DNA of 25,229 nucleotides from an uncultured Tepidisphaeraceae bacterium (GTDB lineage Bacteria; Planctomycetota; Phycisphaerae; Tepidisphaerales; Tepidisphaeraceae): NCBI GenBank assembly GCA_964433485.1, contig CAYSSA010000002.1, positions 6,661 through 31,889 of the forward strand, read 5' to 3'. Below the pieces are notes generated by a model. The model saw only the letters and a program-made list of their open reading frames with translations. It made no database searches and was not told the DNA's origin. Every line of letters starts with the position of its first letter. Positions within the stretch are counted from its first letter, which is position 1. Below, piece by piece: positions 1-22,838 of the stretch. Position numbers and translations under genes: made by a program.

Positions 1-267
1 CATGTAGTCGTGGATGGCCCATTCTTCAGCCACAGGCTCGGTGGATTTGGCGAGCATGGCGGTGATCTCGGCGTGGATGTCGTCCGCATCTTGGTCAGCG
101 TCGATCCAGCATCCGTGCAGTTCGCCGGCGTTGTAGTCGGCCAGGGAGGCCACGTAGATGCGGGGCGTGTACTTCGGGGTGGGCTTGGCCGGTGGCGGCA
201 TTGAATCCGCGGCGGCGGTGGGGTCGGTTGCGGCGGGAATCAGGTCATTGGATTGCTCGGCTTTCAT
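1..267 (-). CDS. ardA: ArdA-family antirestriction (DNA-mimic) protein, 3'-truncated by the window edge; not in the ORF track
   Basis: Manual translation of the minus strand from ATG at 267 (GGAGG 5 nt upstream, 273-277) gives MKAEQSNDLIP...PRIYVASLADYNAGELHGCWIDADQDADDIHAEITAMLAKSTEPVAEEWAIHDY. The frame stays open to base 1. RIYVAxLxxYNxGxLxGxW...EEWAIHDY is the ArdA N-terminal signature. Confidence 0.9.
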   Translation of the reverse strand, partial: MKAEQSNDLIPAATDPTAAADSMPPPAKPTPKYTPRIYVASLADYNAGELHGCWIDADQDADDIHAEITAMLAKSTEPVAEEWAIHDYM

Positions 268-270
268 GAT

Positions 271-340
271 GTCCTCCATGAGGTTCTGGGTTTCGGGTCT
301 CTCACCCCGGTTGGAGAGCCGAAACCCGGAACCGGAGGAC
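271..340 (-). promoter_or_regulatory. Long leader stem-loop pairing with the ardA Shine-Dalgarno
   Basis: Three stacked stems: gtcctcc(271-277)/ggaggac(334-340); ggttctgggtttcgg(282-296)/ccgaaacccggaacc(319-333), one mismatch; ctctc(299-303)/gagag(314-318). Total about 27 bp. Function is inferred. Confidence 0.65.
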
Positions 341-9230: not shown

Positions 9231-9237
9231 ACAGACC

Positions 9238-9533
9238 TCCTCGAAAAAGAGGATTTGTTGCGGCAACCGGCTCCGAGCCACACCGGCCCAGCGTTTTTTT
9301 CCCGGCCGCCGCTCTCGCAAGAGAGCTGGCGGCGGCCGGGAAAGAACCCCCGGCGGCACCCCGTGGAGGCGCCGGGAGCGAGCGGGGAGTGACGGGCTGA
9401 AGCGGAGCGCCGCCTGCGTAATCGCCGAAGGCCAGTCATCGGCGGCGCGCAGCGCTCGGCACGACAAGAGCGAGCGACCAAGCCGGAGCGGGGTGTCGCC
9501 GGGCGGCTCACACCGCGGCGAAGCCGCCGTGAG
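9238..9533. promoter_or_regulatory. Structured non-coding leader upstream of parB
   Basis: Main hairpin 9298-9343: 13 bp + 6 bp, 4-nt bulge, GCAA loop. Further stems: 9349-9355/9370-9376, 9423-9428/9439-9444, 9453-9457/9468-9472, and 9507-9533 with a GCGAAGC core. Stem 9238-9242/9249-9253 covers the SD. Confidence 0.5.
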
Positions 9534-9549
9534 GCTGGAAACTCGATGA

Positions 9550-11019
9550 TCAGATGTAATAGCGGAATTGTGGTAACGGTTCTCGATCCTGCCCCGTCGG
9601 CATTTCTCGCATGATGTCGCCGACCAATCGCGAGAAGCGTAGTGTAATAGGCATCAACCCGGCGAAGGATGCCGAGTTCCAGTTCATCTTGGTGAGCGTG
9701 AGAATCTCTTGAAGCAACGCCTCAATGGAGCTGTCGCCAAAATGGTCGGCGACTTGGAGCGGCGAGGGCACATGGCCGTGTGGGTAAGCCTTGAGCGCCG
9801 GGATGAACCCGGTTGTGTACAGATAGTGCGTGTCGCCAACCTGAAAACTCGTGCCCCGGAGCGGTGGATATTGCCCCGCGCGGAGCAGTCGGGCCTGGCT
9901 GGTTGGACTGACCGCAAGCAGGTCGAATTGCTGCACCTGTTTCAGGGCGGCCTCAAAGCCCTTCTTCTCATCCGGCCAGAAGCGAGAGGATTTGTGAATC
10001 ACAACGCGGGTGGGCTTCTGGCGCATCTCTGCTTCGTAACGGCGGAGCACCAGAGCAATCAGGTCGTTCGCCATTGACTCGCTCAAGTGGGGTGAGTTCC
10101 CGTGCTTGTCCTCGTCCCAGAGGAAATCCTGACCCCTGAGGACAATTCCGTCGCCGTGTTCGTCGAACGCCTGCGCAACGCTGCTGCGCATCTGCTGGGA
10201 CTTGGAGCCAAGGGAGCGAAAGAAGCTGATCCCGATGTAACATGTGCCGGGCCGCAACTGGCGAGGTGACCATGGAATACCGCCGCACTTGAAATACATC
10301 CCCGTAAAGAAGTTCCACGCGCACTTGGATCGGTGATCGACCTTCTTTGAGTCGGGGGCCGCCTCAGAAGTCCGCTGGAGAAGGATCTGCGTGGGCAGGC
10401 GGTACTTCATCGCCTCGGCCTTGAGTGCTCGGCGAAAATCACGATGCACCGACCCGAGAACGGGATCGGTGTAATCCACCGTCTTGCAATCCTCAAGAAG
10501 CGAATCAGGCAGGGCAAGAACGACGTATGTGGGCGGATTGTCTCGCTCCGACAGGAGGCGCAACTTTTGGGAAACCAGGTCCAGTGCTGCGGTGAAGCGA
10601 TCCCGAAGCAGCCTTGGCTGCTCTACCCCCGTCAAATCATGCGTGGTCAGGACTTCATTCAGGCTTGGGTCCACCATCAGATCAGAGAAAAATCCACGGT
10701 CGCTCTTGAAGCCCGGAAAGTCGGGATGATCGGAGTTGCCCTTGGCGCCTTCCGCACATGAGGTGATCCAGTTACGGGAAGACTCGATGCTCTCGCCTGT
10801 TCCGATGAAGCCCAAGCGAATGGTCAAGGGGTGGCGGGGAAGGTCGAGGGATCGCGGGCCGAAAATCGCGATTCCCGTTTGGGGGCTCACATGTTCACGC
10901 CCGCCGCAGAAACCCAAGGGAGGCTCAGATAGGTACTGGGCCTTCAGTACCGGCGCGGTGATGTCGATACGGCGGATCGGCTTTGAGGTGGCGTGATGCA
11001 AGTGTTTATGCTTCTTCAT
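9550..11019 (-). CDS. Short prokaryotic Argonaute (MID-PIWI only, 489 aa, catalytically inactive)
   Basis: Start at ATG 11019 (GAGGAGG RBS). LSEPPLGF...GIAIFGP N-terminus; MID motif FRRALKAEAM...PTQIL...YFKCGGIPW (R-K type); PIWI CYIGISFF, VVIHKSSRF, LTKMNWN, PITLRFS. GIS and HKSS replace the catalytic Asp positions. No N or PAZ domains. Confidence 0.95.
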   Translation of the reverse strand: MKKHKHLHHATSKPIRRIDITAPVLKAQYLSEPPLGFCGGREHVSPQTGIAIFGPRSLDLPRHPLTIRLGFIGTGESIESSRNWITSCAEGAKGNSDHPDFPGFKSDRGFFSDLMVDPSLNEVLTTHDLTGVEQPRLLRDRFTAALDLVSQKLRLLSERDNPPTYVVLALPDSLLEDCKTVDYTDPVLGSVHRDFRRALKAEAMKYRLPTQILLQRTSEAAPDSKKVDHRSKCAWNFFTGMYFKCGGIPWSPRQLRPGTCYIGISFFRSLGSKSQQMRSSVAQAFDEHGDGIVLRGQDFLWDEDKHGNSPHLSESMANDLIALVLRRYEAEMRQKPTRVVIHKSSRFWPDEKKGFEAALKQVQQFDLLAVSPTSQARLLRAGQYPPLRGTSFQVGDTHYLYTTGFIPALKAYPHGHVPSPLQVADHFGDSSIEALLQEILTLTKMNWNSASFAGLMPITLRFSRLVGDIMREMPTGQDREPLPQFRYYI

Positions 11020-12310
11020 CGTCGCCCTCCTCTTCCGGTTCCAGGTCGGTGAGGTCTCCAGCTTCCTCCTTGATGGCATCAAGTTCGGCCAGGGTGAACA
11101 GATCCTCCTCATAGGAGATGTGGGTGAACGACTTGGCATCGTTGGGAACTCCAGGCCAAGAAAGCGTAGTGTTGAGGAGTTCCGTACTGATGGTCAAGTG
11201 CTGACCGCCGCCATAATCGAAGACGATACGCGGCGTGCCGTTGGAGAGGAAATCCCGCCAAAAATTCACCTCCGTCAGCACGTTGGCGTTGTACATGTGC
11301 GACTTGCGGCTGGTTACGCGGCGACCTGTCCCCTTGGGCGTGATCGCCTTGAAGCCATCGAAGGTGAATCGACGTTCCGGACGAATGGAAAGACACCACT
11401 GCCCATCCGCCACGCGATGGAAAGCCAGCCCCACGGCCATGTGCTCCCAATATTTCTTTACTTCCCCCGTGTGTTTGAAGAACGGGTTCCACGCCACCTT
11501 TCGGGAGACCTGTTTGCCGGTCAAAGACGTGTAGACTACCGACAGATCCTGGCCGGGCTTCGCAGGTTCAAAATAGTACCGGCTGTGCTCCTTGTCGAGT
11601 TGGAGTCGCATGCGGCCCGTGAGCTTATTGAGGGAGCGGTTGAGCAACTGCACATACCACCGGGCGCGGTCGGGGTCATCCCACCACCGTACGGCGGGGA
11701 TTGGCCGGGCTTGGCTAAGGTTGGTTACGTCTCGGAAGGGGCTCTGGCTAGAGGTAAGGTTGTCGAATGTGTACAGCTCTCGGTCGCGGACAATGTAGGG
11801 GAGCATGACTTTGGGATTGTCCGGGGCGTGGAGTTTTGCACGAACGTCTGGCTCCTCCACGGTGCATGAGACAGCGAAGATGGTCATTGGGACATGTGTG
11901 ACCGGCAGCAACGTGCTGTGGACGGTATCTGTAACTTGGGCCTCGGGTTGGCTGGTGTGGAGAAACAATTGCCGGGGCGTCAACTGCTGTTGCACCCAGC
12001 GTTCGTGGTCCAGCTTCATCTGAACAAGCTTCTCAACCGTGTAGGTCTGAGGCTGTCGATCCACGATCTCGTGGTGAGCATGGCAGAGCAGGAGCAGGTT
12101 ATCGTAGCCATCCAACTCCCCGCCGGGTGGCTGCTGAGTGCTGCGTGGCCCTCCGGGGCTCTGTGCCACGATGTGCGCGATTTCCCCCAGCGTCACCGAT
12201 GGATCATTTTCGTTGGCGGAAACTACCAGTCCGCGGCGGCAATCCGGAAACGAACATGTGGCGCCAGATTTGCCCCACAGAATCTGTTTGATCCGGTCGG
12301 TGATTGCCAT
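11006..12310 (-). CDS. HNH endonuclease-APAZ fusion, partner of the short pAgo
   Basis: N-terminal HNH: LWGKSGATCSFPDC...GEIAHIV...GPR...DNLLLLCHAHHEIVD. The rest is APAZ-like (STLLPV, YVQLLNRSL, RYYF, LSIRPERRFTFDG, YNANVLTEVNFWRDFL) with an acidic tail. Overlaps the pAgo start by 14 nt. Confidence 0.88.
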   Translation of the reverse strand: MAITDRIKQILWGKSGATCSFPDCRRGLVVSANENDPSVTLGEIAHIVAQSPGGPRSTQQPPGGELDGYDNLLLLCHAHHEIVDRQPQTYTVEKLVQMKLDHERWVQQQLTPRQLFLHTSQPEAQVTDTVHSTLLPVTHVPMTIFAVSCTVEEPDVRAKLHAPDNPKVMLPYIVRDRELYTFDNLTSSQSPFRDVTNLSQARPIPAVRWWDDPDRARWYVQLLNRSLNKLTGRMRLQLDKEHSRYYFEPAKPGQDLSVVYTSLTGKQVSRKVAWNPFFKHTGEVKKYWEHMAVGLAFHRVADGQWCLSIRPERRFTFDGFKAITPKGTGRRVTSRKSHMYNANVLTEVNFWRDFLSNGTPRIVFDYGGGQHLTISTELLNTTLSWPGVPNDAKSFTHISYEEDLFTLAELDAIKEEAGDLTDLEPEEEGDDEEA

Positions 12311-12320
12311 CGTGCCTCCC

Positions 12321-15300
12321 TCAAGTCAGCTTGAAGTCTGCGTCCACGTCCTTCAGCAGAGCGTTGATGTCACTTACGACGGAGGCGGGCGGGGGTGTCT
12401 TTCCGTCGCCGACCTCCAGGCGGACATGGAACTTCATGGCGACCTTCGCCTTTGCCTTGACTTCCAATAGCGCCGGGATGAGGTCCCCCAAGTCTTGAAC
12501 CTGCGACGGCTCAAAATCCGCCGCGGCGCTCCTGACATTGGGCGGCGCAGAACCTCCACCAGGTCCGCCGCCCGCGCCGCCCCCAGTTCCGCCGCCGGCG
12601 CCTGCGGTGGCGAGCTTGATCTTCACCGTCTGGGCGGCGGGTAGGTCGGATGGCCAAGGGGCAGAGTCGTCAGTCAAGGCAATGAACCTCGCCTGTAATG
12701 ATCCGCCGATCACGTCGCGCACGGTCTTCCACGGCAGCGTGTTGCCTGCCTGCTGAGATAGCGCGGTGGCGATGGCCAGGGCGGTTGTATTGCCGTCCTT
12801 CCACGCGGCGGACAAGTTCTCCGGCAGGATTGCGGCGGCCGAAATCGGTGGCGGCGGCGTGCGCAGTTTGGCGCTGGGGGACAGTACCCCGGCGGGGATC
12901 GGTTCAGCCAAAAGGCTGGCAGGCCCGGACAACAGCCACACCTTGCCGGCGGCGACGGCTTCACCGATGGCGGCGTTGACTACGTCGGCGGACGCCTTGG
13001 GAATTGGCATTGGTTCCTGGAAGCCGCCCTTATCCACCTGTACGACGGTCTTGCCGCCGAAATAATCGAGCGCCGCCTGGGCGGTAAGCTCGTCGCCGGC
13101 CCACAGCGATGGCAGCGCTTTGGGCGCAAGTAATTCCGGAGAAATGTCGGCCAGTTCCGCCGCTTCGGGCAGAACTAGCTCCAGCGCCGGGTCGGCCAGC
13201 GCCGCATCGTCCGGCTGCGAACGCCACCAGGTCCGGAATGTACGGTCCGGTCGTTGGAGCTTGAGAACGAACGTCCCCTGAACGCAGCCACCGACGAGCG
13301 TTTCGACAATTGCCTGCGCCTTGAGCATCTTGGGAAGGTGCGGCAGTTGTGCGAAGGCACCCGCCAGATCCTTCACGCGGCGGCTGGTTTCGCCGCCTTT
13401 CCACAGGTTGTACGGGCCATCTGGCAATAGGGCTTCGGCGGTAATGGCTGTGTCCTGGACGCGGGAACGGCTGTCATTCTTGATGGTGTCAAAGTGCGCA
13501 TCTTCGCCGACGGTGATCTTGAATGCCTGGACCTCGTCCTTGTCCGAAACCGTCACGACGATGCAATAGGCTTGGCGAATGGCCTCCGGCACGCGAGCCT
13601 TGGCCTTGTCGATGTTGATCTTGAGGGTCTGCAAGCGAGCGACATCCACGGAGCCCTTCTGCTTCTTCTCCTCCTCGTTCTTCGGCGTCAGGTCGTTCAT
13701 GACCCGCTCCCACGCAAGGAAATCGCGCATGCGGGCTTCGGCTGCACTCAGGCCGTCCTTTGAGGCAGCCAGGAGCAGGACCGCGTTGCGGAAGACGCGC
13801 GGCTTTTCCGGGCCGGTCGTCTCATCCAGGAATCGCTTGGCTTCCGGGCTGGGTTTGCCGGAATCCGACGATGCGCTTGGTGACATGATGGCGTAGTGGA
13901 ACAGTCCATCGTCCTCAATGTCCCTCGCCTTGGTCGGAAGCGTGTGGACGCGGACACCGGCCGCCGAGGCGCCGCTGGTCAGCGTCTTGGCCTTGCCAAT
14001 CTCATCGACCAACCTCGCCCGGACCAACTCGTCGGTGATGTTCGCCGCGGCGGCGGACTGCATCTGAATCAGGTTCGGGCGATTGCCCAACCGCCATTCA
14101 GCGGGCAGTTGCCCTTCCTTCTCGGGCATATTGGTGTCGTCAAGCCAGTGGCTATTACGCGCCCACCGGGCCAGGCCCTTCTCAAGCTCGATTTTGTCCG
14201 GGCGGCACGGACCGATGAGCATCAAGAGGTCCCGGGTCTTGGCGCTGCGTCCGGTGGGCTGGGAATGCAGGAAGGTGGCCATGGCGGCCTGCTCAATCTC
14301 GCGCAGCTTCAGACCGACGGCTTCCGACTGTACGCGGCGAGCGCTTTCCAATTCGTTCTCCACAATGCCCGTCCAGCGCGTAGCCTGGCCGTCGCCAACG
14401 ATGGTGTCGGCAATCGAGACGAGCTCGCGGGCAGCCTCGGAAAGCCCAGCCTGTTTCGGCGAGCTGAGGAACACAGACGCGCCCACCAGAGGGCTATCGT
14501 CCCATTTCTCGGCCTCGCGTAGCGCCAACGCGAACGTGCGCAGCACGCCGCGGGTCTTCTGGAATCGCTCGATCCCTGCTGCCCACTTGGAGTAGAACAC
14601 GTCCGTCAATTCGGGGTGGAAGGGGTAGCTCTTGAGGTATCGCTCCTCCGCCGTTGCACCCTGCTTGGCCGTCTGGTCGTCCAGAGCGGCGATGCCCTTG
14701 AGGGCCGCGATGACGTGCTGCGGCCAGGTACCGCGCAACTCCACCGATTTGGGATCGAACAGCCGGCGGCGGAGCACCTCGGCCACGTCATCCTTCTCAA
14801 CAGGCTGCACGGCCTCCTCTCGCTGGCGCTGGAAGATATCGTACAGACCCGACACGATCTTCTTGCCCAGCGGATCGGCCTGGTCTTTTGGTTCGCTGGA
14901 CAGCAGCGACGCCACGATGCAGCACCGCTGAACCTTGGCCGCCGCCTGAGTCAGGTACTGGAAGAATCCAACGAGCACGTCCAGGAAGCCGGGCTCCAAG
15001 TGACATCGCACCTTGGCGTACAACAGCACCTCGTCGAGAAGAATCAGAATCCCCAGCCCGGATTTAAGGGGGAGCGACAACAACTCGGTTAGCGTGTTTT
15101 CGGCCGGGGGCGTGTTGCGTTCCTCGGCTTTCCCCTCAGCGTTCAACAGCTTGAGACCTTGATCGCCCGCGAGCTGGTAGGCCAGCAGGCTCCACGGCTG
15201 CTTGAGCCGGCGCACGGCGCCATCGGGGCCGCGCACGTCGCAACCCGTCTCAACGTCCAGTTTGTCAAAGCAGAGCGCGGCGACGCGAGCTTTCGGGGGC

Positions 15301-15674
15301 GCCTGGCCAATGGTCTCGGTGAACTCGCGTACAGCGGGCAGGTCCGGCAGGTTGTCCGGGTCATGCACCAGGTGACGCATCGTGATGAGCGTGTGCGTCT
15401 TGCCGCCGCCGTACGTCAATTCGAGCTGCCGGACGGCTTTGTCGTTCTTGCCGGCCAGACGCAGAACCACGTCACGCACCAAATTGCGCAGGTTGTGCGT
15501 GGGGAACGTCAGGGCGAAGAATTCCTCCGGCTTCTCATACAGCGGCCGCATGCCGTTCTGCATCATGACTTCGTACAGATCGGCCGCGAACATGTGCAGC
15601 GGCAGGTCGCCGCTGCGCAGGTCGCTGCGGAGTTGGACAACCTCGTGCCACGGTTTCCAGGATAACTTAGCCAT
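12321..15674 (-). CDS. DUF499-family AAA+ ATPase
   Basis: KPWHEVVQLRSDL...FAADL...PEEFFALTFPT N-terminus; Walker A LTYGGGKTHT; Walker B LILLDEV; SYPFHPEL; FQKTRGVLR; Gly-rich linker near the C-terminus. Confidence 0.92.
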   Translation of the reverse strand: MAKLSWKPWHEVVQLRSDLRSGDLPLHMFAADLYEVMMQNGMRPLYEKPEEFFALTFPTHNLRNLVRDVVLRLAGKNDKAVRQLELTYGGGKTHTLITMRHLVHDPDNLPDLPAVREFTETIGQAPPKARVAALCFDKLDVETGCDVRGPDGAVRRLKQPWSLLAYQLAGDQGLKLLNAEGKAEERNTPPAENTLTELLSLPLKSGLGILILLDEVLLYAKVRCHLEPGFLDVLVGFFQYLTQAAAKVQRCCIVASLLSSEPKDQADPLGKKIVSGLYDIFQRQREEAVQPVEKDDVAEVLRRRLFDPKSVELRGTWPQHVIAALKGIAALDDQTAKQGATAEERYLKSYPFHPELTDVFYSKWAAGIERFQKTRGVLRTFALALREAEKWDDSPLVGASVFLSSPKQAGLSEAARELVSIADTIVGDGQATRWTGIVENELESARRVQSEAVGLKLREIEQAAMATFLHSQPTGRSAKTRDLLMLIGPCRPDKIELEKGLARWARNSHWLDDTNMPEKEGQLPAEWRLGNRPNLIQMQSAAAANITDELVRARLVDEIGKAKTLTSGASAAGVRVHTLPTKARDIEDDGLFHYAIMSPSASSDSGKPSPEAKRFLDETTGPEKPRVFRNAVLLLAASKDGLSAAEARMRDFLAWERVMNDLTPKNEEEKKQKGSVDVARLQTLKINIDKAKARVPEAIRQAYCIVVTVSDKDEVQAFKITVGEDAHFDTIKNDSRSRVQDTAITAEALLPDGPYNLWKGGETSRRVKDLAGAFAQLPHLPKMLKAQAIVETLVGGCVQGTFVLKLQRPDRTFRTWWRSQPDDAALADPALELVLPEAAELADISPELLAPKALPSLWAGDELTAQAALDYFGGKTVVQVDKGGFQEPMPIPKASADVVNAAIGEAVAAGKVWLLSGPASLLAEPIPAGVLSPSAKLRTPPPPISAAAILPENLSAAWKDGNTTALAIATALSQQAGNTLPWKTVRDVIGGSLQARFIALTDDSAPWPSDLPAAQTVKIKLATAGAGGGTGGGAGGGPGGGSAPPNVRSAAADFEPSQVQDLGDLIPALLEVKAKAKVAMKFHVRLEVGDGKTPPPASVVSDINALLKDVDADFKLT

Positions 15675-16917
15675 GTGATCGTCCTTTCGTCGCCGCCCGC
15701 GTTTCCAGGGCGTGCTGGGTCGCCAAGATTTCCTGGCGCAGAGTCTCGGGATCGGGAAGTTGGGTGAGGTATTTGGACGCGAACACCTGGGCGCGAATCC
15801 CGCCCATCGCGTACTTCACCACCGCGTCCTCTTTGTCGCTGCACAGAATGATGCCGATCGGGTCGTTCTCGCCGGCCATCGTCAAATGTTCTTTAACGTA
15901 GGTGAGGTACAGGCTCATCTGCCCGGCGTCGGCATGGTTGAACGACCCTCGCTTCAGGTCGAGCACCACCAGGCAGCGCAGCACGCGGTGGTACAGCAGC
16001 AGGTCGATGCGATACCACTGGCTGCCCACGCGAATCCGCTTCTGCCGCGCCACAAAGGTGAACCCGGCCCCCAGTTCCAGCAGAAACCATTCTAGGTGCC
16101 GAATGAGCGCATCCTCCAGTTCGCTCTCGCTGTACTCGTCCTTGAGATCGAGGAACTCCAGCAGGTACGGGTCGCGCACCTCATCCTGGGCCGACACTGC
16201 ATCCTCCGGCCGCGCAATCTGTCCGCGGGCCAGCATGGCGGCTTGCTGTTTGGAATGCGACGTGCGCTCAAAAAACTGTGTGCCAATCTGCCGGTCCAAC
16301 TGCCGCACCGACCAGCCTCCGCGGATCGCCTCGCTCTCATAAAAGACGCGGGCGTGCGGCTTCTCCACCGCCATCAATCGCACGTAATGCGACCAGGACA
16401 GTGGGAACGCGCCGGCAATCGCCATAAAGCCGGATTCGGCGGACACCGTCTGCAACATTCTCGACGGTGTCGAGACAATGATACCGCCTGATTCCGCCGA
16501 CGGTGTCGGCAGAATACCACCCCCGGATTCGCTCGACAGCGCCGAGCATTTTGCCCTCGCCTCGAATTGTCTCGACGGTGTCGAGACAATTTCCCATGCG
16601 AGATAGAACGCCCGCATCCGTGCCACGTTCGGCCTGGAGAACCCTCTCCCGTGCCTCGTTGTCAGGTCTGCCGAAAGGCGTTCCAGCAGCTTCTCCCCGT
16701 ACTCGGATGTTGCCTTCCCGCCTTGTTCATGCTCCACGATCCGCCGGCCGATTTCCCAATAGGTCGCGGTCAGGATCGCGTTGACCGACCGGGCAACACC
16801 TCGGCGAGCCTGCTCCAGCAAGCCGGATATGCCGGTGAGCAACTGGCCATAGTCGCCGGCCCGCGCGACGATGCTCGTCGTAACAGGCCGCTTCTTCTTG
16901 GACGTGCTTCGTCTCAT
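15667..16917 (-). CDS. yhcG: YhcG/DUF1016-family PD-(D/E)XK nuclease
   Basis: TATYWEIGRRIVEHEQGG, GRGFSRPN, LSWSHY, WSVRQLDRQI, RDPYLLEFL, LLELGAGFTFVARQKR, IDLLLYHR, VVLDLK, DAGQMSLY, PIGIILC. ATGA overlap with the methylase stop. Confidence 0.93.
   Translation of the reverse strand: MRRSTSKKKRPVTTSIVARAGDYGQLLTGISGLLEQARRGVARSVNAILTATYWEIGRRIVEHEQGGKATSEYGEKLLERLSADLTTRHGRGFSRPNVARMRAFYLAWEIVSTPSRQFEARAKCSALSSESGGGILPTPSAESGGIIVSTPSRMLQTVSAESGFMAIAGAFPLSWSHYVRLMAVEKPHARVFYESEAIRGGWSVRQLDRQIGTQFFERTSHSKQQAAMLARGQIARPEDAVSAQDEVRDPYLLEFLDLKDEYSESELEDALIRHLEWFLLELGAGFTFVARQKRIRVGSQWYRIDLLLYHRVLRCLVVLDLKRGSFNHADAGQMSLYLTYVKEHLTMAGENDPIGIILCSDKEDAVVKYAMGGIRAQVFASKYLTQLPDPETLRQEILATQHALETRAATKGRSHG
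16432..16591 (-). repeat. Five ~25-27 nt palindromic units with a GAC-NNN-GTC core, in frame within yhcG
   Basis: Units at about 16565-16591 (perfect 12-bp inverted repeat), 16527-16551, 16491-16515, 16456-16480 and 16432-16455. They encode IVSTPSRQF, KCSALSSES, ILPTPSAES, IVSTPSRM and MLQTVSAES. Confidence 0.85.
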
Positions 16918-19900
16918 GCTTCACCCGCTTCTGGTATGCCCGGCAGCATCGGCCCCTGTTCCTTGACAGCGCCCTTGGCGCCGATGTGATTGCTGATGCT
17001 CTCCAGCAGCGAACGCTCGCTGTTGGTGGACAGTTCGATGAGGGACTGCACGACGCGCTTGAACAACTCGTTCCGCCGCAGTGCATGCTGATCAAGGTAT
17101 CCATCGACCTTCTGCACATCGCCTTCTTTCCACAAGTGCATCACACGGTGGATGCGGTCGATTAGCGGCACGGCCTTGCCGGCTGGGGCTTCGTAGCCAA
17201 TGCTCTTGCCACGTCGCTGGTTCCACGCTTTTAGCTTCACCTTTCCGCCGCCACCGGCATCGCCTTCATCCGCGTCAGCATCGACGTCGTCGTCACCTTC
17301 GGTATCGGCGGCATCAACATCGGCATCGGCGGCATCTTCATCAGCGCCGGCGTGCGCGATGATCTCCCATGTACGATCGAGATCGCTGTCGGTGAGGCCA
17401 CAGGCGGTAGCGTAGAGGATGCACGCGCCCGCTGGCGCATCATCCATTCCGAAGTCATGGCGGTGCAGCAGGTAATAGGCTGTCACCTCATCCAAACGGT
17501 CGGCGGCGGCCAAGTCGGAGCCTTTCTCGCCGGTCAGCACCTGGCCGACGACATAGTCCACCACCATTCGCCGGACGTGGTTGAGAAATTCGCCGACGGT
17601 CATCGTGGCGTTGGGCTCGTTGGCCTTCCGCACGACGGGGTGTTTACTGTATGCCTCCAACGCCGGCCCGGTGGCCGCCCAGACGAAGTCCGGGCCACGT
17701 ATCCCCGCGTCCCAATACTCTCGCAGGCGATCCGCAATGTTGGCCTTCATCTCCTGCAGGACAGTATTGTCCCAGCCTGGGCGAGCCGTGGCCGGACGTT
17801 TTCTGCAAACGAGCCACACGGACGAGGCGAGAGCCGCGGAACCCAAGGAGCGAACGCGATTGCCCATTTCGGTCTGAATGGGCCACGACCCGTCCACTGT
17901 GAATCCAGCACGGATGATCGCCGAAACGAGCGTTTCCCAGGCATTCGGTTGCTTATTGGCGAAGACGATTACGAGGCGACCTTCGGGCTTTAGAGCTTGC
18001 GCACACGCAACGAATGCGCGGGCCATGCCATCTTCATATGCCTGCTTGCTCTTAGTGCCGTCCATCCCATGACGGCTGCAATCATCGATCAATTCACCGT
18101 CGTTGGCTTCGTGGTTCCACTTCGGTGAAAGAGGCGAGTTGAACGCAGTGTCGATAGCGGGTGACGCGCCTTGCAAAGACCTGCGTAACCACACATAGAA
18201 GAAGTCCATCAAGTCAGAGTATGGAATGGCATCGTAGTACGGCGGGTCGGTTAGGATGATGTCCAGCCCGTCGGACAAAGCTTGCGTGGCACTGCCGGAT
18301 TTCACGCATGGTGCGGGCTGTCGCTCGATAGCGGCGAGCGTCCGAGAAATGAATAGCGCAATCCATTCGATGGCGCCCAGATAACCACCGGACGTTTCGG
18401 AGGCAACTCCGACTTCAGTGAAGTCCCACACCATCGGCAAGGCGAACCTGCCGAAGGTATTCCGCATCTTCTCGCCACTATTATGCCAAGTACAAACGGC
18501 TGACCCGTAGTCTGCAAGGCGATCAGCGGCGATAGCCAGATACGCCTCAACGGCCTCGATCCATTCCGGCGGGTAACTATTGGCGGCAAGGACTTTGCCC
18601 GTTTGCCGTGTAGCCGACACCACGGTGCCCAAAGCTGTGAGTTGTCGGGCAGTAAATAGCTTTCGCCATCTGTCAAATCCGTATAGCGGCACGCGCATCC
18701 CGAGTGCGTCCTCGCTGGGCATTGGCTCCTCCGGGATGCCGAACGGCACATTGGCAAATGCCTGCTCAATCCGCTCCTGATCTGGCGTGGCGACCGCTAG
18801 CTCGAACTCGGTTGGTAGGCGGTATTCCTTCCCATCGGGGCCGTCCACGACGACGGCTGTCATGACACTGCCCAAACGGTTCGCCCGGCCTTCAGTGCGC
18901 ATATCCTCCATTGTCATGATGGCTGGGCAGCAAGGGCACTTGGCGCCGGCGCGGCTCATGGTGCCGGCGGCGATGCGTTTGTCGTGCTCGCGGCGCTGGG
19001 CCGCATTGCCGCCCTGGACAGGGACATTGGCCTGGATGCCGAACACGACCCGCTTGGTGCCCGACGGGTTGGGCACGACGGCTGCTGACGCCGATGATGC
19101 GAAATGGGCCGCCACCTTGGCGCGGACGGCTTCCGCCGTCTGCTCCATGTGTGGATCGATATCGCGCGCCTCCATCGTCAGCAGTACGCGCTTGCGGTCC
19201 TTCTTGCACAGCCACCGGGTCTTGAGCAGCGGTATTTGCGAGCGGCAATTTTTGCACGTGACCGTCCGCGCCCACAGATAGGCGACGGTCGGCTTGGCCA
19301 CCCATCGCGGGTTACGCCTGTCGGCAACGTAATCCTCTGTGAACTCGCCGTTCAACGAGTTGATGTCGGCGGTGCCATCGTCGGTCAGCGGAACCAGGCG
19401 CATGGGTTGGCGCTCATAGGCGACATGGTCTTTCTTTAGCGGTTCAAAATCGGCATAGGTGGGGTAAAGGCCGGCAAGTTCGCGGCGGGCATGGTCCAGC
19501 ACCCACTGGCCCCAGCCACGGATATGCCAAGCCAGATCGGCGTCGATGGCCATGTCGCCGCCGGCGATGTCGAGGCTCATCTGCTCCCCGTGTTCCAGCT
19601 TGTGGCCGAGTTGCTCCAGTCGCTTCTTCACTTGCGCTTTACTCAGGCCATGCGCTTTGAAGAAGGACTCCATGAACGTCTTATTGTTCAGGATGAACTT
19701 CGGCAGCGACCGCTTCTGCCCGGCCAACTTCTGCGGATACTCCAACGTGCATTTGAGGATGAACCACGCGACGGGGTTAATATCGACAGCCGTGGCCTCG
19801 CAACCCAGGCGCATCGCCTCAAACGGAATTGCGCCGCCGCCGGCGAACGGATCGAGCACCTTGGGGGCGCGGCCGCCGTAGGCTTTGCGAATTTCCTGAC

Positions 19901-20255
19901 GGAACCATTCGAGCGTGTCGGCGTTCTCGACTTCGCGACCCCAGTGAAGGATGCCGCCCTCGGTCTCCTCCTTGATCCGGTCTACGACCTGTCCGTTGGG
20001 CATCTTCTTCTTTTCGATCCGCTTGACGACCTTGCCGCCGATCTTCTCGCATAGTTCGCGGCGTTTCTCCGGATCGCCCGGGTCGGGAAGCAGCGTGGCG
20101 ATGAGCGCTGCCCGGCAAGCCGCCAGCGGCCGCCGCGCCGGCCAGATGTGAAGTGTCGAAATATGCCCGTGGCGGACTGCCTTCTCGTGGACAGAATCCA
20201 GCGAAGTCTGTTTCAGCGGGAATGCGTGTTCGATGAGTCGGGAAAAGTCAGTCAT
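16914..20255 (-). CDS. DUF1156-family DNA amino-methyltransferase (probably N6-adenine)
   Basis: DUF1156 signature GHISTLHIWPARRPLAACRA; motif I VLDPFAGGGAIP; motif IV ILTDPPYYD; CKNC and CPCC Zn-ribbon pairs; WPIQTE. Confidence 0.93.
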   Translation of the reverse strand: MTDFSRLIEHAFPLKQTSLDSVHEKAVRHGHISTLHIWPARRPLAACRAALIATLLPDPGDPEKRRELCEKIGGKVVKRIEKKKMPNGQVVDRIKEETEGGILHWGREVENADTLEWFRQEIRKAYGGRAPKVLDPFAGGGAIPFEAMRLGCEATAVDINPVAWFILKCTLEYPQKLAGQKRSLPKFILNNKTFMESFFKAHGLSKAQVKKRLEQLGHKLEHGEQMSLDIAGGDMAIDADLAWHIRGWGQWVLDHARRELAGLYPTYADFEPLKKDHVAYERQPMRLVPLTDDGTADINSLNGEFTEDYVADRRNPRWVAKPTVAYLWARTVTCKNCRSQIPLLKTRWLCKKDRKRVLLTMEARDIDPHMEQTAEAVRAKVAAHFASSASAAVVPNPSGTKRVVFGIQANVPVQGGNAAQRREHDKRIAAGTMSRAGAKCPCCPAIMTMEDMRTEGRANRLGSVMTAVVVDGPDGKEYRLPTEFELAVATPDQERIEQAFANVPFGIPEEPMPSEDALGMRVPLYGFDRWRKLFTARQLTALGTVVSATRQTGKVLAANSYPPEWIEAVEAYLAIAADRLADYGSAVCTWHNSGEKMRNTFGRFALPMVWDFTEVGVASETSGGYLGAIEWIALFISRTLAAIERQPAPCVKSGSATQALSDGLDIILTDPPYYDAIPYSDLMDFFYVWLRRSLQGASPAIDTAFNSPLSPKWNHEANDGELIDDCSRHGMDGTKSKQAYEDGMARAFVACAQALKPEGRLVIVFANKQPNAWETLVSAIIRAGFTVDGSWPIQTEMGNRVRSLGSAALASSVWLVCRKRPATARPGWDNTVLQEMKANIADRLREYWDAGIRGPDFVWAATGPALEAYSKHPVVRKANEPNATMTVGEFLNHVRRMVVDYVVGQVLTGEKGSDLAAADRLDEVTAYYLLHRHDFGMDDAPAGACILYATACGLTDSDLDRTWEIIAHAGADEDAADADVDAADTEGDDDVDADADEGDAGGGGKVKLKAWNQRRGKSIGYEAPAGKAVPLIDRIHRVMHLWKEGDVQKVDGYLDQHALRRNELFKRVVQSLIELSTNSERSLLESISNHIGAKGAVKEQGPMLPGIPEAGEA

Positions 20256-20260
20256 TTACG

Positions 20261-21190
20261 TCATCCTTGAGCGAGGGCAATCTCGCCAAAACTCCAAGAG
20301 CGACCGCCCTTCGTGCCGATTAGCAGGGGATTTTGCGGCGGAGCGATCGTCAACTTCACGTGCCCTTGTTTGCGTGTCGTGATCATCTTGTAATCCGCGT
20401 CGCCGACCTTGATGCCACGAACCGGATCCTGGCAGTATCGCGAGTCAACGTGAGGGTCTTTGGACACAACGGAGACCAAGACGACCGCGGGCTTGGCGAG
20501 GTTCAGGAGGTCAACGGAGTAGGCGGAGGCATGACCATGGTGAGGGGCCACCAAAATGTCGATTCCGGTCACGAACGGCCGCCAGGCGGCGCCGTATTGG
20601 CCAGTGTCCGCAATGATGGCTTCCCACGCCTCTTTTTCCAAATCGCCGCATAGGAGGATTGAGTTGCCATGCACGTCGATGCGAGTAACGACGCTGGCGT
20701 TGTTCACGCGACTGTTCGCTTGGCCGCCGACCTGCCTCGCCACCGTCACGGGCAAAGCCAATTCACGAATCACTACGCCGCCATAGTCTGGATAGCCGGT
20801 GGTCGTGAATGTACCCGCGAAGTGCGAAGCGAAGGCGTGTACTTCAGGCCACGAGTCATCGGTACTCGTTGAGCGGCAGTCCTCCAGGTACTCCTGGTCG
20901 AAATCGACGGTCTTGAGGAAATCCGGTCCGTACTCGAAGAGACGAGCATGGTCGGCCAGGTGATCACAATGCAGGTGACTGATGGTGCCCTTGAGAAACC
21001 TGAAGGGAGTGCGGATCATCAACTGCGCGTACGGCGAGGCCGATGCCGGCGTCTCGCGGCGTGCAATCCACTGGATCGGTGAAAACGTGGATGTGCAGCC
21101 TGCATCGAAGAGACACCAGCGGCCATTAGGCAAGCGCAGGCCAGCGCATTGCCCATGATCGACATTGAAGAGGAAGAATTCGGTATTCAC
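20261..21190 (-). CDS. ComEC/Rec2-type metallo-beta-lactamase-fold hydrolase (MBL-2, 309 aa)
   Basis: Start reassigned to GTG 21190 (GGAGG RBS; GTGA overlap with the upstream stop). Motifs: FNVDHGQC, FDAG, SHLHCDH, NNASVV, LLCGDLE, APHHG, VSV, TTRKQGHV. No signal peptide. Confidence 0.88.
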   Translation of the reverse strand: MNTEFFLFNVDHGQCAGLRLPNGRWCLFDAGCTSTFSPIQWIARRETPASASPYAQLMIRTPFRFLKGTISHLHCDHLADHARLFEYGPDFLKTVDFDQEYLEDCRSTSTDDSWPEVHAFASHFAGTFTTTGYPDYGGVVIRELALPVTVARQVGGQANSRVNNASVVTRIDVHGNSILLCGDLEKEAWEAIIADTGQYGAAWRPFVTGIDILVAPHHGHASAYSVDLLNLAKPAVVLVSVVSKDPHVDSRYCQDPVRGIKVGDADYKMITTRKQGHVKLTIAPPQNPLLIGTKGGRSWSFGEIALAQG

Positions 21191-21846
21191 GCCGGCCTCC
21201 CGTTGTTGGCAGCGGCCGGCAGCTGCAGGTACTGAACGAACACCTCGCGTGCATAGCGAACGGCAAACCGGTGCATGCGATAGATGGCGAGCGAAATGAG
21301 CACGGCGAGGATTACCTCCACCTTCCACGCCCGCCAATGCATGATTGCCGATGCAACCAGAAGCACAATCAAGCCGGCTGCAATGCCGCGGCAGAGTCCG
21401 TAGTTGCCATTGAAAATGTCAACGCGGTTGTTCTGCTTTGCCGCTTCCACGGCGGCGTAAACCTGCCGGGTGATTGCGTACCACTGCTTGGCAGTGGCGT
21501 TAGACAGAGCAAATGCTGGGTCGCTCACGCTCAAACGGACACGCCCTTCGAGCATCGTGCGCTGTGACGGAGCAATTATTTCGTGTTTGCCGCTGCGAAC
21601 CCAGTCCGTCGGCATCCCGCCCCAGAACCACCACCAGCCCGTCTCGACTGCATTGCCGATTGCTTGAAGAAGCTGCCCGGCAACATAGGCGAGAATCAAA
21701 CCGACGCCAAGGCTTCCAAGGGAAACACTGGAAATGGCGACCAGATCTTTGCTGTGGTCGGGGAAGAACAAGAGTACCAGGCCGACGATGAACACCATGC
21801 CTGGCGCGATGACGCCCGCCGTTCCGTAGAAATCGAACTCTTTCAT
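21187..21846 (-). CDS. Uncharacterised 4-TM membrane protein (219 aa; alternative TTG start at 21885)
   Basis: Hydrophobic segments: AGVIAPGMVFIVGLVLLFF, LGSLGVGLILAYVAGQLL, GIAAGLIVLLVASAIM, VEVILAVLISLAIY. Soluble middle loop; GAGG RBS before ATG 21846. Confidence 0.8.
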   Translation of the reverse strand: MKEFDFYGTAGVIAPGMVFIVGLVLLFFPDHSKDLVAISSVSLGSLGVGLILAYVAGQLLQAIGNAVETGWWWFWGGMPTDWVRSGKHEIIAPSQRTMLEGRVRLSVSDPAFALSNATAKQWYAITRQVYAAVEAAKQNNRVDIFNGNYGLCRGIAAGLIVLLVASAIMHWRAWKVEVILAVLISLAIYRMHRFAVRYAREVFVQYLQLPAAANNGRPA

Positions 21847-21881
21847 AACCGTACCTCGCTTCCATAGCCGCGTCATGTACC

Positions 21882-22838
21882 TCAACGGTCATACTGGGAA
21901 CGAATCGTCGGCTTTGCCGCGGCGTCATACGTGATCTCGATGTTTCCCTTCCAGCGGGTGGACCATACGTTCTCCGAGTGCTTCCGGTACTTGTCGGATG
22001 CGTCTGTTTCGGGTTTCTTGCCCACGGATACGATGGTGTATTGCGGCTTCATCAACTCGACGGCCCTATCGTGATAACCGGAATCACGGCCGTGGTGACT
22101 CGCCTTCAGGACTGTGCACTTCAATCCTGATCCGTACCGTTTCACGAGATCATCCCACACCACTTCTTCCGCATCACCGGCCAGGACGATTTTCACGCCG
22201 CCAAGGGTTACGCGCAGCACATAGCTCAGGTCGTTGACGTTGTCCGAATCTTGAATTGCCCGGAGGGTGGCGGGATTGGGGTGAAGGATGTCGATCCCGT
22301 CACCACCATCGACGCCGTCGGGGTCCTGATTCCAGAATGTGCCTTTGTCGCCACAGTATTTCCGAAGCACTTTGGGGGAGCCGTTGGGCGACCCGCGGAG
22401 CCGCTTGTACTCGTTCCACGATTTCCGGTCGGCATCGCTTGTGAGATCAGGAATGAATGTGTGGTCCGTGTCCCAGAAGTTCACAATGTCAATGTTGTGC
22501 GCCTTGAGTTGCTCAATGCCACTCAAATGGTCAAGGTGAGGATGCGTTTGAACATAGCGGAAGATGTCCTTGCCTGGGTAGTTCTTGCTGAGGAATTCAA
22601 TCGGGTTTGTCAGCTCGATGTCATAGCCGGCCTCCTTGACCATGCCGTAGCTGCGCTGGCCAAGAGCTTCGGCAAGCATCAATCGCATGTTGCCCTGTCG
22701 ATAATACTGACTGACTTCCGCGAGGGATTCGTGGTCTAACTCGGTGCAGTTGTTCACGTCAACGACCGTCAGTCGGCCGCTGGCGTGTTCGATAACGGTG
22801 CAGTCGCCATGCCCGACATTTAAGAAGGTAATCTTCAC
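21882..22838 (-). CDS. ComEC/Rec2-type metallo-beta-lactamase-fold hydrolase (MBL-1, 318 aa)
   Basis: Motifs: FLNVGHGDC, THPHLDH, NDLSYV, LAGDAE, KASHHG, VSVG, STRWKGNI. GTG start overlaps the helicase stop (GTGA), with a GAGGAGG RBS. Confidence 0.9.
   Translation of the reverse strand: MKITFLNVGHGDCTVIEHASGRLTVVDVNNCTELDHESLAEVSQYYRQGNMRLMLAEALGQRSYGMVKEAGYDIELTNPIEFLSKNYPGKDIFRYVQTHPHLDHLSGIEQLKAHNIDIVNFWDTDHTFIPDLTSDADRKSWNEYKRLRGSPNGSPKVLRKYCGDKGTFWNQDPDGVDGGDGIDILHPNPATLRAIQDSDNVNDLSYVLRVTLGGVKIVLAGDAEEVVWDDLVKRYGSGLKCTVLKASHHGRDSGYHDRAVELMKPQYTIVSVGKKPETDASDKYRKHSENVWSTRWKGNIEITYDAAAKPTIRSQYDR

What the first reader, a model, noticed from the sequence alone, without database searches (positions are those of the whole stretch)
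9550..12310. HNH-APAZ plus inactive short pAgo (HNH-effector Argonaute system)
Seen in sequence: the pAgo lacks the DEDX tetrad (GIS, HKSS) and has an R..K 5'-guide-binding motif. The partner carries a Zn-binding HNH (C-x4-C...AHI...N...CxxHH) fused to APAZ. Established knowledge: characterised short pAgos use TIR (SPARTA), Sir2 (SPARSA) or DREN (SPARDA) effectors activated by guide-target recognition. By my recollection an HNH-APAZ type has recently been named SPARHA; this needs verifying. By eye the HNH resembles the type found in CBASS Cap5-like effectors. Inference: target-activated collateral DNase causing abortive infection, here in a probable planctomycete.
Basis: partly seen in the sequence, partly recalled or inferred. 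Interest (0 to 1): 0.72.

Follow-up and report, generated by a model that had tools for sequence, protein, structure and literature searches.

The report
SPARHA: short Argonaute with HNH nuclease
This is an intact two-gene bacterial immune system (SPARHA) in which a cleavage-dead short Argonaute controls an HNH DNA-cutting partner; the system type was characterised in 2025, so this copy from a hot-spring planctomycete is an ordinary new member, notable only for sitting directly behind a DUF499/Hma restriction-like operon.

Summary
Minus-strand genes 12310..11006 (HNH-APAZ, 434 aa) and 11019..9550 (short pAgo, 489 aa, 14-nt overlap) align over their full lengths with the two chains of the solved AcaSPARHA filament (PDB 9OM4; E 2.5e-150 and 1e-186).

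Conserved features:
- HNH catalytic residues H46, N71 and H80
- the zinc ligands C19, C24, C76 and H79
- the bridge glutamate E43
- the MID 5'-phosphate binders R196 and K200
- the sensor loop
- the target-base tyrosines

None of the four PIWI catalytic positions holds an acidic residue. SPARHA ("short prokaryotic Argonautes, HNH-associated") was named and characterised in Nat Commun 2025 (PMC12738770). There, RNA-guided recognition of DNA makes filaments whose HNH tetramers shred DNA, causing abortive infection. This scan has already reported SPARHA operons in other genomes. The host is a Tepidisphaeraceae planctomycete (RpoB 92%).

One feature is less ordinary. The cassette starts 10 nt after the DUF499/HmaC gene of an Hma (BREX-related) operon, probably on a conjugative element. 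All six members of its subclade abut a helicase operon of this kind. In five of them Hma components are confirmed, in varying arrangements. Two distant SPARHA loci are also Hma-linked. A functional link is unproven. Verdict: new member of a known kind, low interest.

The parts
11006..12310 (-). HNH-APAZ effector gene (434 aa, P0001)
   Evidence: Full-length match to PDB 9om4_A 'HNH endonuclease' of AcaSPARHA, E 2.5e-150. 577 homologous protein clusters at E<=1e-10.
11978..12310 (-). HNH nuclease head, residues 1-111. Zn ligands C19, C24, C76, H79; catalytic H46, N71, H80; bridge E43.
   Evidence: PADLOC Cap5/SAVED-HNH effector models, E 1e-34 to 1e-27, over residues 2-111. Cap5 structures 7rwm and 7rwk, E 5e-11 and 4e-10. 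The residues are invariant or nearly so in alignment A1. Aca N71A/H80A and Mlla H53A abolish activity (PMC12738770).
11018..11962 (-). APAZ region, residues 117-431, ending in an acidic tail. Y340 lines the pocket for the target base.
   Evidence: PADLOC Aga_*-PNTD1-PNTD2 models, E 1.6e-33 and 4.7e-31. Aligned with the APAZ of 9om4_A and weakly with the SPARDA DREN-APAZ 9qbl_A and 9qbq_A. Y340 is invariant.
9550..11019 (-). Short pAgo gene (MID-PIWI, 489 aa from ATG 11019)
   Evidence: PDB 9om4_B, E 1.1e-186, over residues 24-489. PADLOC pAgo_I, E 2e-147. The start is supported by homologues and by a GGAGG.
9664..10347 (-). PIWI domain stretch matched by Pfam Piwi, with a dead catalytic site (S265, P310, S344, gap/Ser)
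   Evidence: Pfam PF02171 scores only 15.7 bits, below its cut-off.
11006..11019 (-). 14-nt overlap of the HNH-APAZ stop (TAA 11008..11006) with the pAgo start (ATG 11019..11017): translational coupling
   Evidence: Sequence read. The same 11-14-nt overlap occurs in relatives L010, L011, L015 and L173.
12311..12320 (-). 10-nt spacer (contains GGGAGG) between the DUF499/HmaC stop and the HNH-APAZ start
   Evidence: junction sequence. No promoter-like or terminator-like site lies at the junction.
12321..25229 (-). Neighbouring system, not part of SPARHA: a co-oriented Hma / BREX-related operon. HmaA helicase 22835..25229+ ; MBL 21882..22838 ; Csx27-like 21187..21885 ; MBL-like 20261..21337 ; HmaB DUF1156 methylase 16914..20255 ; YhcG nuclease 15667..16917 ; HmaC DUF499 ATPase 12321..15674.
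   Evidence: PADLOC HmaA 2e-72, HmaB 1.8e-119, HmaC 2e-70. Pfam DUF499, DUF1156, YhcG_C, Helicase_C and NOV_C.

Best explanation
A canonical, intact SPARHA defence module.

Inferred by homology:
- The HNH-APAZ protein and the short pAgo form a heterodimer in which pAgo sequesters the HNH head and keeps it off.
- The pAgo MID pocket (R196, K200, D194, D228) holds the 5' end of a small guide RNA taken from abundant invader transcripts.
- When the guide pairs with more than about 10 nt of complementary invader DNA, the duplex pushes out the PIWI sensor loop (H306-L312).
- The complexes then polymerise into helical filaments. The released HNH heads dimerise and tetramerise into double active sites.
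- With Mn2+, these sites cut double-stranded DNA indiscriminately. The cell's DNA is destroyed and the plasmid or phage does not spread (abortive infection).

Shown here: gene integrity, domain architecture, conservation of the residues named above, and operon structure.

From the literature on relatives (Mlla/Aca/LheSPARHA), not tested for this copy: binding, guide type, filament formation, and DNase activity.
For: - Both proteins align over their full lengths with the two chains of the AcaSPARHA cryo-EM structure 9OM4 (E 2.5e-150 and 1.1e-186).
- HNH residues H46, N71, H80, E43 and the CCCH zinc site are conserved. They are invariant or nearly so across 37 homologues. The equivalent mutants are dead in Aca and MllaSPARHA.
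- MID R196, K200, I212, D194 and D228, PIWI Y384, APAZ Y340 and the sensor loop HGNSPHL are conserved relative to AcaAgo.
- The PIWI tetrad is absent.
- The order HNH-APAZ then pAgo holds in every related locus with enough downstream sequence.
- In the tree, the pAgo's nearest neighbours are all pAgos with HNH-APAZ partners.
- The distribution among relatives is patchy, typical of defence cargo. Only 1 of 60 related genomes has a clear homologue.
- The mechanism comes from PMC12738770.
Against: - Nothing was measured for this copy. No RNA run holds the locus, so expression is unknown.
- Three residues that contact the first guide base or the opposite target base in AcaAgo differ here: G163 is K179, R164 is T180, and R367 is Q383. 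These positions vary across the family, so the 5'-nucleotide preference may differ from Aca's 5'-A.
- This subclade's pAgo has an extra basic tail of about 17 residues at the N-terminus, of unknown effect.
Confidence: 0.9

Rival explanations
1. SPARHA is here functionally integrated with the neighbouring DUF499-centred Hma (BREX-related) system. It would be co-transcribed as the last two genes of one operon and would act as that system's back-up suicide effector, or be regulated by it, rather than working as an autonomous module.
For: - A 10-nt spacer with a Shine-Dalgarno sequence separates the HmaC stop from the HNH-APAZ start. No promoter-like or terminator-like site lies there.
- The same order, HmaC then SPARHA, recurs in three loci. 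In L010 HmaC is 81% identical. In L011 the SPARHA proteins are 83-88% identical (76.7% at DNA level), but HmaC is only 28% identical, and DNA homology starts exactly at the HNH ATG and ends at the pAgo stop. The third is a distant Thiodictyon locus, L015.
- In L176 and L179, SPARHA sits divergently next to an HmaA that is 67-70% identical to the window's.
- L028 has SPARHA directly upstream of HmaA.
- On the pAgo tree, Hma adjacency needs at least three independent changes.
Against: - Only 3 of about 35 SPARHA loci with adequate flanks in the species-representative genomes have Hma components nearby.
- Mlla, Aca and LheSPARHA work alone in E. coli and in vitro.
- The orientation and side relative to Hma vary (downstream of HmaC, divergent from HmaA, upstream of HmaA). 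That fits linkage within a defence island better than a fixed operon.
- Hma operons also hold other variable inserts: YhcG and MBL genes here, a HEC-02 ATPase in L015, Abi_C in L176.
- The 2026 survey of DUF499 systems does not mention Argonautes.
Confidence: 0.12
2. The biological role is mainly competition between mobile elements. The Hma+SPARHA island would be cargo of a conjugative element and would protect that element by killing cells that acquire rival plasmids, rather than serving as chromosomal anti-phage immunity. The molecular mechanism would be the same as in the best explanation.
For: - The same 46.8-kb contig carries ArdA fragments, an ImmA/IrrE-HTH pair, a PRTRC-type ParB directly downstream of the pAgo, and a TraD/VirD4-like coupling protein.
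- The closest SPARHA relatives lie next to type IV secretion genes: TrbI, CagX, VirB8, TrbL, VirB4 and TrbC.
- Characterised SPARHA is triggered by plasmid ori transcripts.
Against: - No relaxase or integrase was identified, and the ends of the element are unknown because this is a MAG contig.
- MllaSPARHA also reduces plating of 4 of the 13 phages tested.
- No plasmid in PLSDB carries a pAgo more than 36% identical to this one.
Confidence: 0.3
3. The genes are a silent or decaying remnant, intact by chance but not functional or not expressed.
For: No expression data are available. The genome is a 69%-complete MAG.
Against: - Both ORFs are full length, with every residue that was tested in relatives conserved.
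- The translational coupling is preserved.
- Subclade homologues at 69-88% identity keep the same lengths, which argues for purifying selection.
Confidence: 0.04

Closest known systems
AcaSPARHA (Acidithiobacillus caldus short pAgo + HNH-APAZ; PDB 9OM4), with MllaSPARHA and LheSPARHA (Kanevskaya et al., Nat Commun 2025, PMC12738770)
   Same: - Two-gene order and overlapping genes.
- Cap5-type HNH head with the same catalytic and zinc residues.
- APAZ domain.
- MID-PIWI pAgo with a dead PIWI site.
- R/K 5'-phosphate pocket, D228 (the U2 contact), sensor loop 1, and the Y384 and Y340 target-base pocket.
- Both proteins align over their full lengths. HNH-APAZ is about 55-60% identical and the pAgo is 58% identical to a near-copy of AcaAgo.
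   Different: - The host is a Tepidisphaeraceae planctomycete from a hot-spring metagenome.
- The pAgo has a basic N-terminal tail about 17 residues longer.
- First-base contacts differ: G163/R164 are K/T and R367 is Q.
- The cassette abuts an Hma/DUF499 operon.
- It is untested biochemically.
SPARDA (short pAgo + DREN-APAZ; PDB 9qbl, 9qbq, 9qbp)
   Same: It belongs to the same S2B short-pAgo group and has the same APAZ adaptor logic. It is also an RNA-guided collateral nuclease activated by target DNA. Its pAgo is the next-best solved match (E 4.5e-65).
   Different: The effector head is a DUF4365/DREN PD-(D/E)XK nuclease, not an HNH. Only the APAZ part of P0001 aligns with it (residues 168-356, E 1e-6).
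CBASS effector Cap5 (HNH-SAVED; PDB 7rwk, 7rwm, 8fm1)
   Same: The HNH head is of the same subfamily (E 5e-11). According to the SPARHA paper, both are activated by oligomerisation into HNH tetramers.
   Different: The Cap5 sensor is a SAVED domain that binds cyclic nucleotides. Here the sensor is APAZ plus a pAgo that binds a guide-target duplex. There is no SAVED match beyond residue 111.
SPARTA and SPARSA (short pAgo with TIR-APAZ or SIR2-APAZ)
   Same: The short-pAgo/APAZ heterodimer is activated by RNA-guided recognition of DNA and by oligomerisation, with an abortive-infection outcome.
   Different: Those effectors deplete NAD+ rather than cutting DNA. Their pAgos are much more distant (E 1e-46 and 1.8e-19).

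Membership tests
SPARHA | Short pAgo made of MID and PIWI only (no N or PAZ domains) | tested here: met
   The protein is 489 aa. Residues 24-489 align with residues 7-471 of the 471-aa MID-PIWI chain 9om4_B. PADLOC pAgo_I covers positions 2-455 of 455.
SPARHA | PIWI catalytic DEDX tetrad lost | tested here: met
   Against TtAgo D478/E512/D546/D660, this protein has S265, P310, S344 and a gap/Ser. All 40 SPARHA pAgos aligned share S, P/A and S/T at the first three positions.
SPARHA | MID pocket residues that anchor the guide 5'-phosphate (Aca R180, K184) and the second guide base (D212) | tested here: met
   R196, K200 and D228 are present, and each is conserved in at least 116 of 118 family members.
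SPARHA | Partner protein with an N-terminal Cap5-type HNH domain and intact catalytic His/Asn/His and CCCH zinc site | tested here: met
   H46, N71 and H80 are present, with C19, C24, C76 and H79. PADLOC HNH-effector models score E 1e-34 to 1e-27.
SPARHA | Partner C-terminal APAZ domain | tested here: met
   PNTD1-PNTD2 profiles score E 1.6e-33 over residues 118-425. The region aligns with the APAZ of 9om4_A and of SPARDA 9qbl_A.
SPARHA | Operon order HNH-APAZ then pAgo, with the two genes coupled | tested here: met
   The genes overlap by 14 nt. The same order is seen in about 40 related loci.
SPARHA | pAgo belongs to the HNH-associated clade of S2B short pAgos | tested here: met
   The best solved match is SPARHA (E 1e-186), against SPARDA at 4.5e-65, SPARTA at 1e-46 and a SIR2-type at 1.8e-19. 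In the tree, all of its near neighbours have HNH-APAZ partners. The references with other effectors sit on long branches. Strict monophyly of SPARHA against them was left unresolved as a polytomy.
SPARHA | Sensor loop SL1 and target-base pocket needed for filament activation | tested here: met
   SL1 reads HGNSPHL here and HGNSAHM in Aca. Y384 and APAZ Y340 are conserved. The Mlla connector-loop and interface-loop residues could not be mapped because no Mlla sequence was held.
SPARHA | Stable heterodimer; filament formation dependent on guide RNA and target DNA; Mn2+-dependent collateral dsDNA cleavage; abortive infection | not testable with these tools
   This is inferred from homology to the characterised systems. 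No complex prediction was run, because homology to a solved heterodimer already sets the odds.
CBASS Cap5 (HNH-SAVED) | SAVED cyclic-nucleotide sensor domain fused to the HNH | tested here: not met
   Matches to SAVED-HNH models and to Cap5 structures cover only residues 2-111. The rest of the protein is APAZ.
Hma / DUF499-centred BREX-related system (as a component) | Regular co-occurrence with the helicase-methylase-DUF499 core | tested here: not met
   Hma genes adjoin SPARHA in only 3 of about 35 adequately flanked genome loci. They do adjoin it in at least five of the six members of this subclade.

The most novel reading that the evidence does not exclude
SPARHA cassettes are recurrently recruited to DUF499-centred Hma (BREX-related) operons. 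In this lineage they would be co-transcribed with them as a nine-gene unit, so that a methylation-based first line and an Argonaute-triggered suicide nuclease act as one coordinated, co-mobilised two-layer system on conjugative elements.
Probability: 0.12. Interest if true: 0.55.

Novelty: new member of a known kind. Interest (0 to 1): 0.24.

Why it matters
On its own this matters little. It adds a Phycisphaerae/Tepidisphaeraceae member from a hot-spring metagenome to a defence family that was biochemically and structurally characterised in 2025. It also shows that Pfam and NCBIfam still fail to name either protein. Pfam HNH_2 and Piwi both score below their cut-offs, and NCBIfam gives no hit, so such operons are annotated as 'HNH endonuclease' plus 'hypothetical protein'. 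A copy from a hot spring could interest people building SPARHA-based DNA detection. The repeated placement next to Hma/DUF499 operons on conjugative elements is a small lead on how defence modules assemble into layered islands.

Tried and rejected
- Pfam alone is nearly blind here. HNH_2 scores 17.7 bits (cut-off 21) and Piwi 15.7 bits (cut-off 28.9). NCBIfam has no model for the HNH-APAZ protein.
- The longest pAgo ORF (start 11139, 529 aa) was rejected in favour of ATG 11019.
- The search for related loci with the single protein found only an HNH-only relative. The alignment-based scan was needed.
- The Pfam Piwi search of the window's own genome found nothing, although the pAgo is there. 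This is the same sensitivity problem.
- PLSDB plasmids hold no SPARHA-type pAgo. The best match is 36% identical and has SMEK or DUF4365 partners.
- The promoter and terminator scans were uninformative, and the sigma-70 consensus may not apply to planctomycetes. The hairpin downstream of the pAgo is not significant (z = -1.9).
- The tree did not resolve SPARHA monophyly against the long-branched TIR, SIR2, DREN and SMEK references.
- The helicase in L173, upstream of SPARHA, is only weakly HmaA-like (39% over 200 aa). That locus counts as doubtful for the Hma link.
- I did not run structure prediction or complex prediction. A solved homologous heterodimer at E 1e-150 and 1e-186 makes them uninformative.
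- The Mlla connector-loop and interface-loop residues were not mapped, because no MllaAgo sequence was available from a tool.
Full report
**Observation.** The window has two overlapping minus-strand ORFs at the stated place: 11006..12310 (434 aa) and 9550..11139 (longest form 529 aa). The first protein shows C19-x4-C24, EIAH46IV, N71 and C76-H-A-H79-H80. The second shows CYIGIS and VIHKSS.

The pAgo start needs one correction. The nine closest homologues are 476-492 aa long and begin at the position of M41 with a similar basic tail. ATG 11019 is preceded by GGAGG and overlaps the upstream TAA stop by 14 nt. The pAgo is therefore 489 aa (9550..11019). Residue numbers below use this form.

**Identity.**
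- Pfam is almost blind to both proteins. HNH_2 scores 17.7 bits and Piwi 15.7 bits, both below their cut-offs.
- PADLOC profiles are decisive. Residues 2-111 of the first protein match Cap5/SAVED-HNH effector heads (E 1e-34 to 1e-27). Residues 117-431 match the PNTD1-PNTD2 (APAZ) part of Argonaute-associated proteins (E 1.6e-33). The second protein matches class I short pAgo (E 2e-147).
- Against solved structures, the two proteins align over their full lengths with chains A and B of 9OM4 (E 2.5e-150 and 1.1e-186).
- 9OM4 is the AcaSPARHA filament of Kanevskaya et al., Nat Commun 2025, the paper that named SPARHA.
- The next-best pAgo structures are SPARDA (4.5e-65), SPARTA (about 1e-46) and a SIR2-type pAgo (1.8e-19).

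**Functional residues.**
- In an alignment of 37 HNH-APAZ homologues, C19, C24, H46, N71, C76, H80 and Y340 are invariant. E43 and H79 are at least 90% conserved.
- These are the zinc ligands, the catalytic residues (Aca N71A/H80A and Mlla H53A are dead), the bridge glutamate (Mlla E50A is dead), and the APAZ tyrosine lining the pocket for the first target base.
- For the PIWI site I fetched TtAgo from plasmid pTT27 and aligned it through 40 SPARHA pAgos. D478, E512, D546 and D660 correspond to S265, P310, S344 and a gap/Ser. No position is acidic, and the family shares this state.
- I used P0233, a near-identical AcaAgo copy, for numbering. The 5'-phosphate binders R180 and K184 are R196 and K200 here. 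I196 is I212, D178 is D194, D212 is D228 and Y368 is Y384. Sensor loop 1 (HGNSAHM in Aca) is HGNSPHL.
- Only the first-base contacts differ: G163/R164 are K/T and R367 is Q. These positions vary across the family. The characterised systems already differ in 5'-nucleotide preference.

**Mechanism.** By homology, the pair is a heterodimer that is off at rest. A small guide RNA sits in the MID pocket. Pairing with invader DNA displaces the sensor loop, and the complexes polymerise into filaments. HNH heads then form tetramers with double active sites, which shred dsDNA in Mn2+ and cause abortive infection. For this copy only the sequence prerequisites are shown; the activity is inferred.

**Distribution and host.**
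- The family is large: 577 HNH-APAZ clusters and over 1,300 pAgo clusters at E<=1e-10.
- An alignment-based scan of species-representative genomes gave about 44 SPARHA loci. They come from Planctomycetota, Nitrospirota, Gammaproteobacteria, Chloroflexota, Acidobacteriota, Gemmatimonadota, Actinomycetota, Verrucomicrobiota and Cyanobacteriota. The pAgo always lies directly downstream.
- Only 1 of 60 relatives of the host genome has a clear homologue, a patchy pattern typical of defence cargo.
- The genome's RpoB fragment is 92% identical to Tepidisphaeraceae MAGs, so the host is a planctomycete of class Phycisphaerae.
- The DNA is held in hot-spring metagenome runs. No RNA run holds it.
- This scan has already reported SPARHA operons in other genomes.

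**Surroundings.** The cassette is the 3' end of a co-oriented gene string: HmaA helicase, MBL, a Csx27-like membrane protein, an MBL-like protein, HmaB (DUF1156 methylase), a YhcG nuclease, HmaC (DUF499 ATPase), then a 10-nt spacer with GGGAGG, then HNH-APAZ and the pAgo. Hma systems were recently reclassified as DUF499-centred BREX-related systems. That survey does not mention Argonautes.

The adjacency recurs in other loci:

| Locus | Relation to the window | Arrangement |
|---|---|---|
| L010 (Planctomycetales MAG) | SPARHA proteins 80-83% identical, HmaC 81% | HmaB, HmaC, 12-nt gap, SPARHA, then a Zac system |
| L011 | SPARHA proteins 83-88% identical (76.7% at DNA level); HmaC only 28% | DNA homology to the window starts exactly at the HNH ATG and ends at the pAgo stop |
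| L176, L179 | HmaA 67-70% identical | SPARHA divergent from HmaA |
| L015 (Thiodictyon) | SPARHA about 52% identical | HmaA, HmaB, HEC-02, one further gene, HmaC, 105-nt gap, SPARHA |
| L028 (Anaerolineae) | distant SPARHA | SPARHA directly upstream of HmaA |

On a pAgo tree, the window sits in a six-member clade (support 100/99). All six members abut such a helicase operon, though the L173 helicase is only weakly HmaA-like, so the link is confirmed in five. Hma adjacency needs at least three independent changes on the tree.

Against a specific link:
- Only 3 of about 35 adequately flanked genome loci are Hma-linked.
- The side and the orientation vary.
- SPARHA works alone in E. coli.

I read this as defence-island linkage, possibly with co-transcription in this lineage. 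I give a true functional coupling about 0.12.

**Mobile-element context.** The 46.8-kb contig also carries these elements:
- ArdA, split over two reading frames
- an ImmA/IrrE-HTH pair
- a PRTRC-type ParB 82 nt downstream of the pAgo
- a TraD/VirD4-like coupling protein

The closest SPARHA relatives lie beside type IV secretion genes. The island is probably cargo of a conjugative element. No relaxase or integrase was found.

**Verdict.** This is an intact new member of a characterised system, so interest is low. The Hma association is recorded as a lead.

Noticed in passing
window 12311-25229 (-); L010, L011, L015, L028, L176, L179: SPARHA cassettes repeatedly abut Hma/DUF499 (BREX-related) operons in different arrangements. 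Some lie downstream of HmaC, some are divergent from HmaA, and one lies upstream of HmaA. On the pAgo tree this needs at least three independent juxtapositions. In L011 the SPARHA proteins are 83-88% identical to the window's (76.7% at DNA level), but the adjacent HmaC is only 28% identical.
   Followed up: partly
window 15667-16917 and 20261-22838 (-); L015:5416-7080; L176:514-2919; L179:341-2695: The gaps between the three Hma core genes hold different cargo in different loci. The window has a YhcG nuclease and an MBL/membrane-protein/MBL trio. L015 has a HEC-02-type ATPase plus a 178-aa gene. L176 has Abi_C plus a 472-aa gene. L179 has Hypoth_Ymh plus a 465-aa gene. The inter-core positions therefore behave as variable accessory slots.
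   Followed up: partly
window 1-279 (-) and G000:C2 6299-6682 (L182, -): The ArdA antirestriction gene appears split. Pfam ArdA positions 1-50 lie in the frame of window 279..1. Positions 64-149 lie in a different, overlapping minus-strand frame just left of the window. This is a frameshift or a MAG assembly error.
   Followed up: partly
window 7353-9467 (-); L183:11362-14448 (-); L182:3019-4272 (-): Signs of a conjugative element surround the defence island. A 704-aa PRTRC-type ParB lies 82 nt downstream of the pAgo. The contig also has a 1028-aa TraD/VirD4-like coupling protein and an ImmA/IrrE-HTH pair. No relaxase or integrase was found on the contig.
   Followed up: partly
window 10960-11070 (-): The acidic C-terminal tail of HNH-APAZ (..EPEEEGDDEEA) and the basic N-terminal tail of this subclade's pAgo (MKKHKHLHHATSKPIRR) are encoded around the same purine-rich overlap, which also supplies the pAgo's Shine-Dalgarno sequence. 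The basic tail is absent from AcaAgo (471 aa).
   Followed up: no
L028:644-5054: In an Anaerolineae MAG the HNH-APAZ ORF is cut short at 349 aa. A 470-aa opposite-strand ORF lies between it and the pAgo. This is probably a SPARHA operon disrupted by an insertion.
   Followed up: no
window 672-5668 (+): A 1456-aa Ser/Thr kinase with a large WD40 array overlaps by 4 nt a downstream gene for an ECF-type sigma factor (Sigma70_r2). The pairing may be a regulatory unit.
   Followed up: no
L010:12764-19912: In the closest named relative (a Planctomycetales MAG), SPARHA is followed by a 233-aa unknown gene and a complete ZacABC system. The locus order is Hma, SPARHA, Zac, a three-system defence island.
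   Followed up: partly
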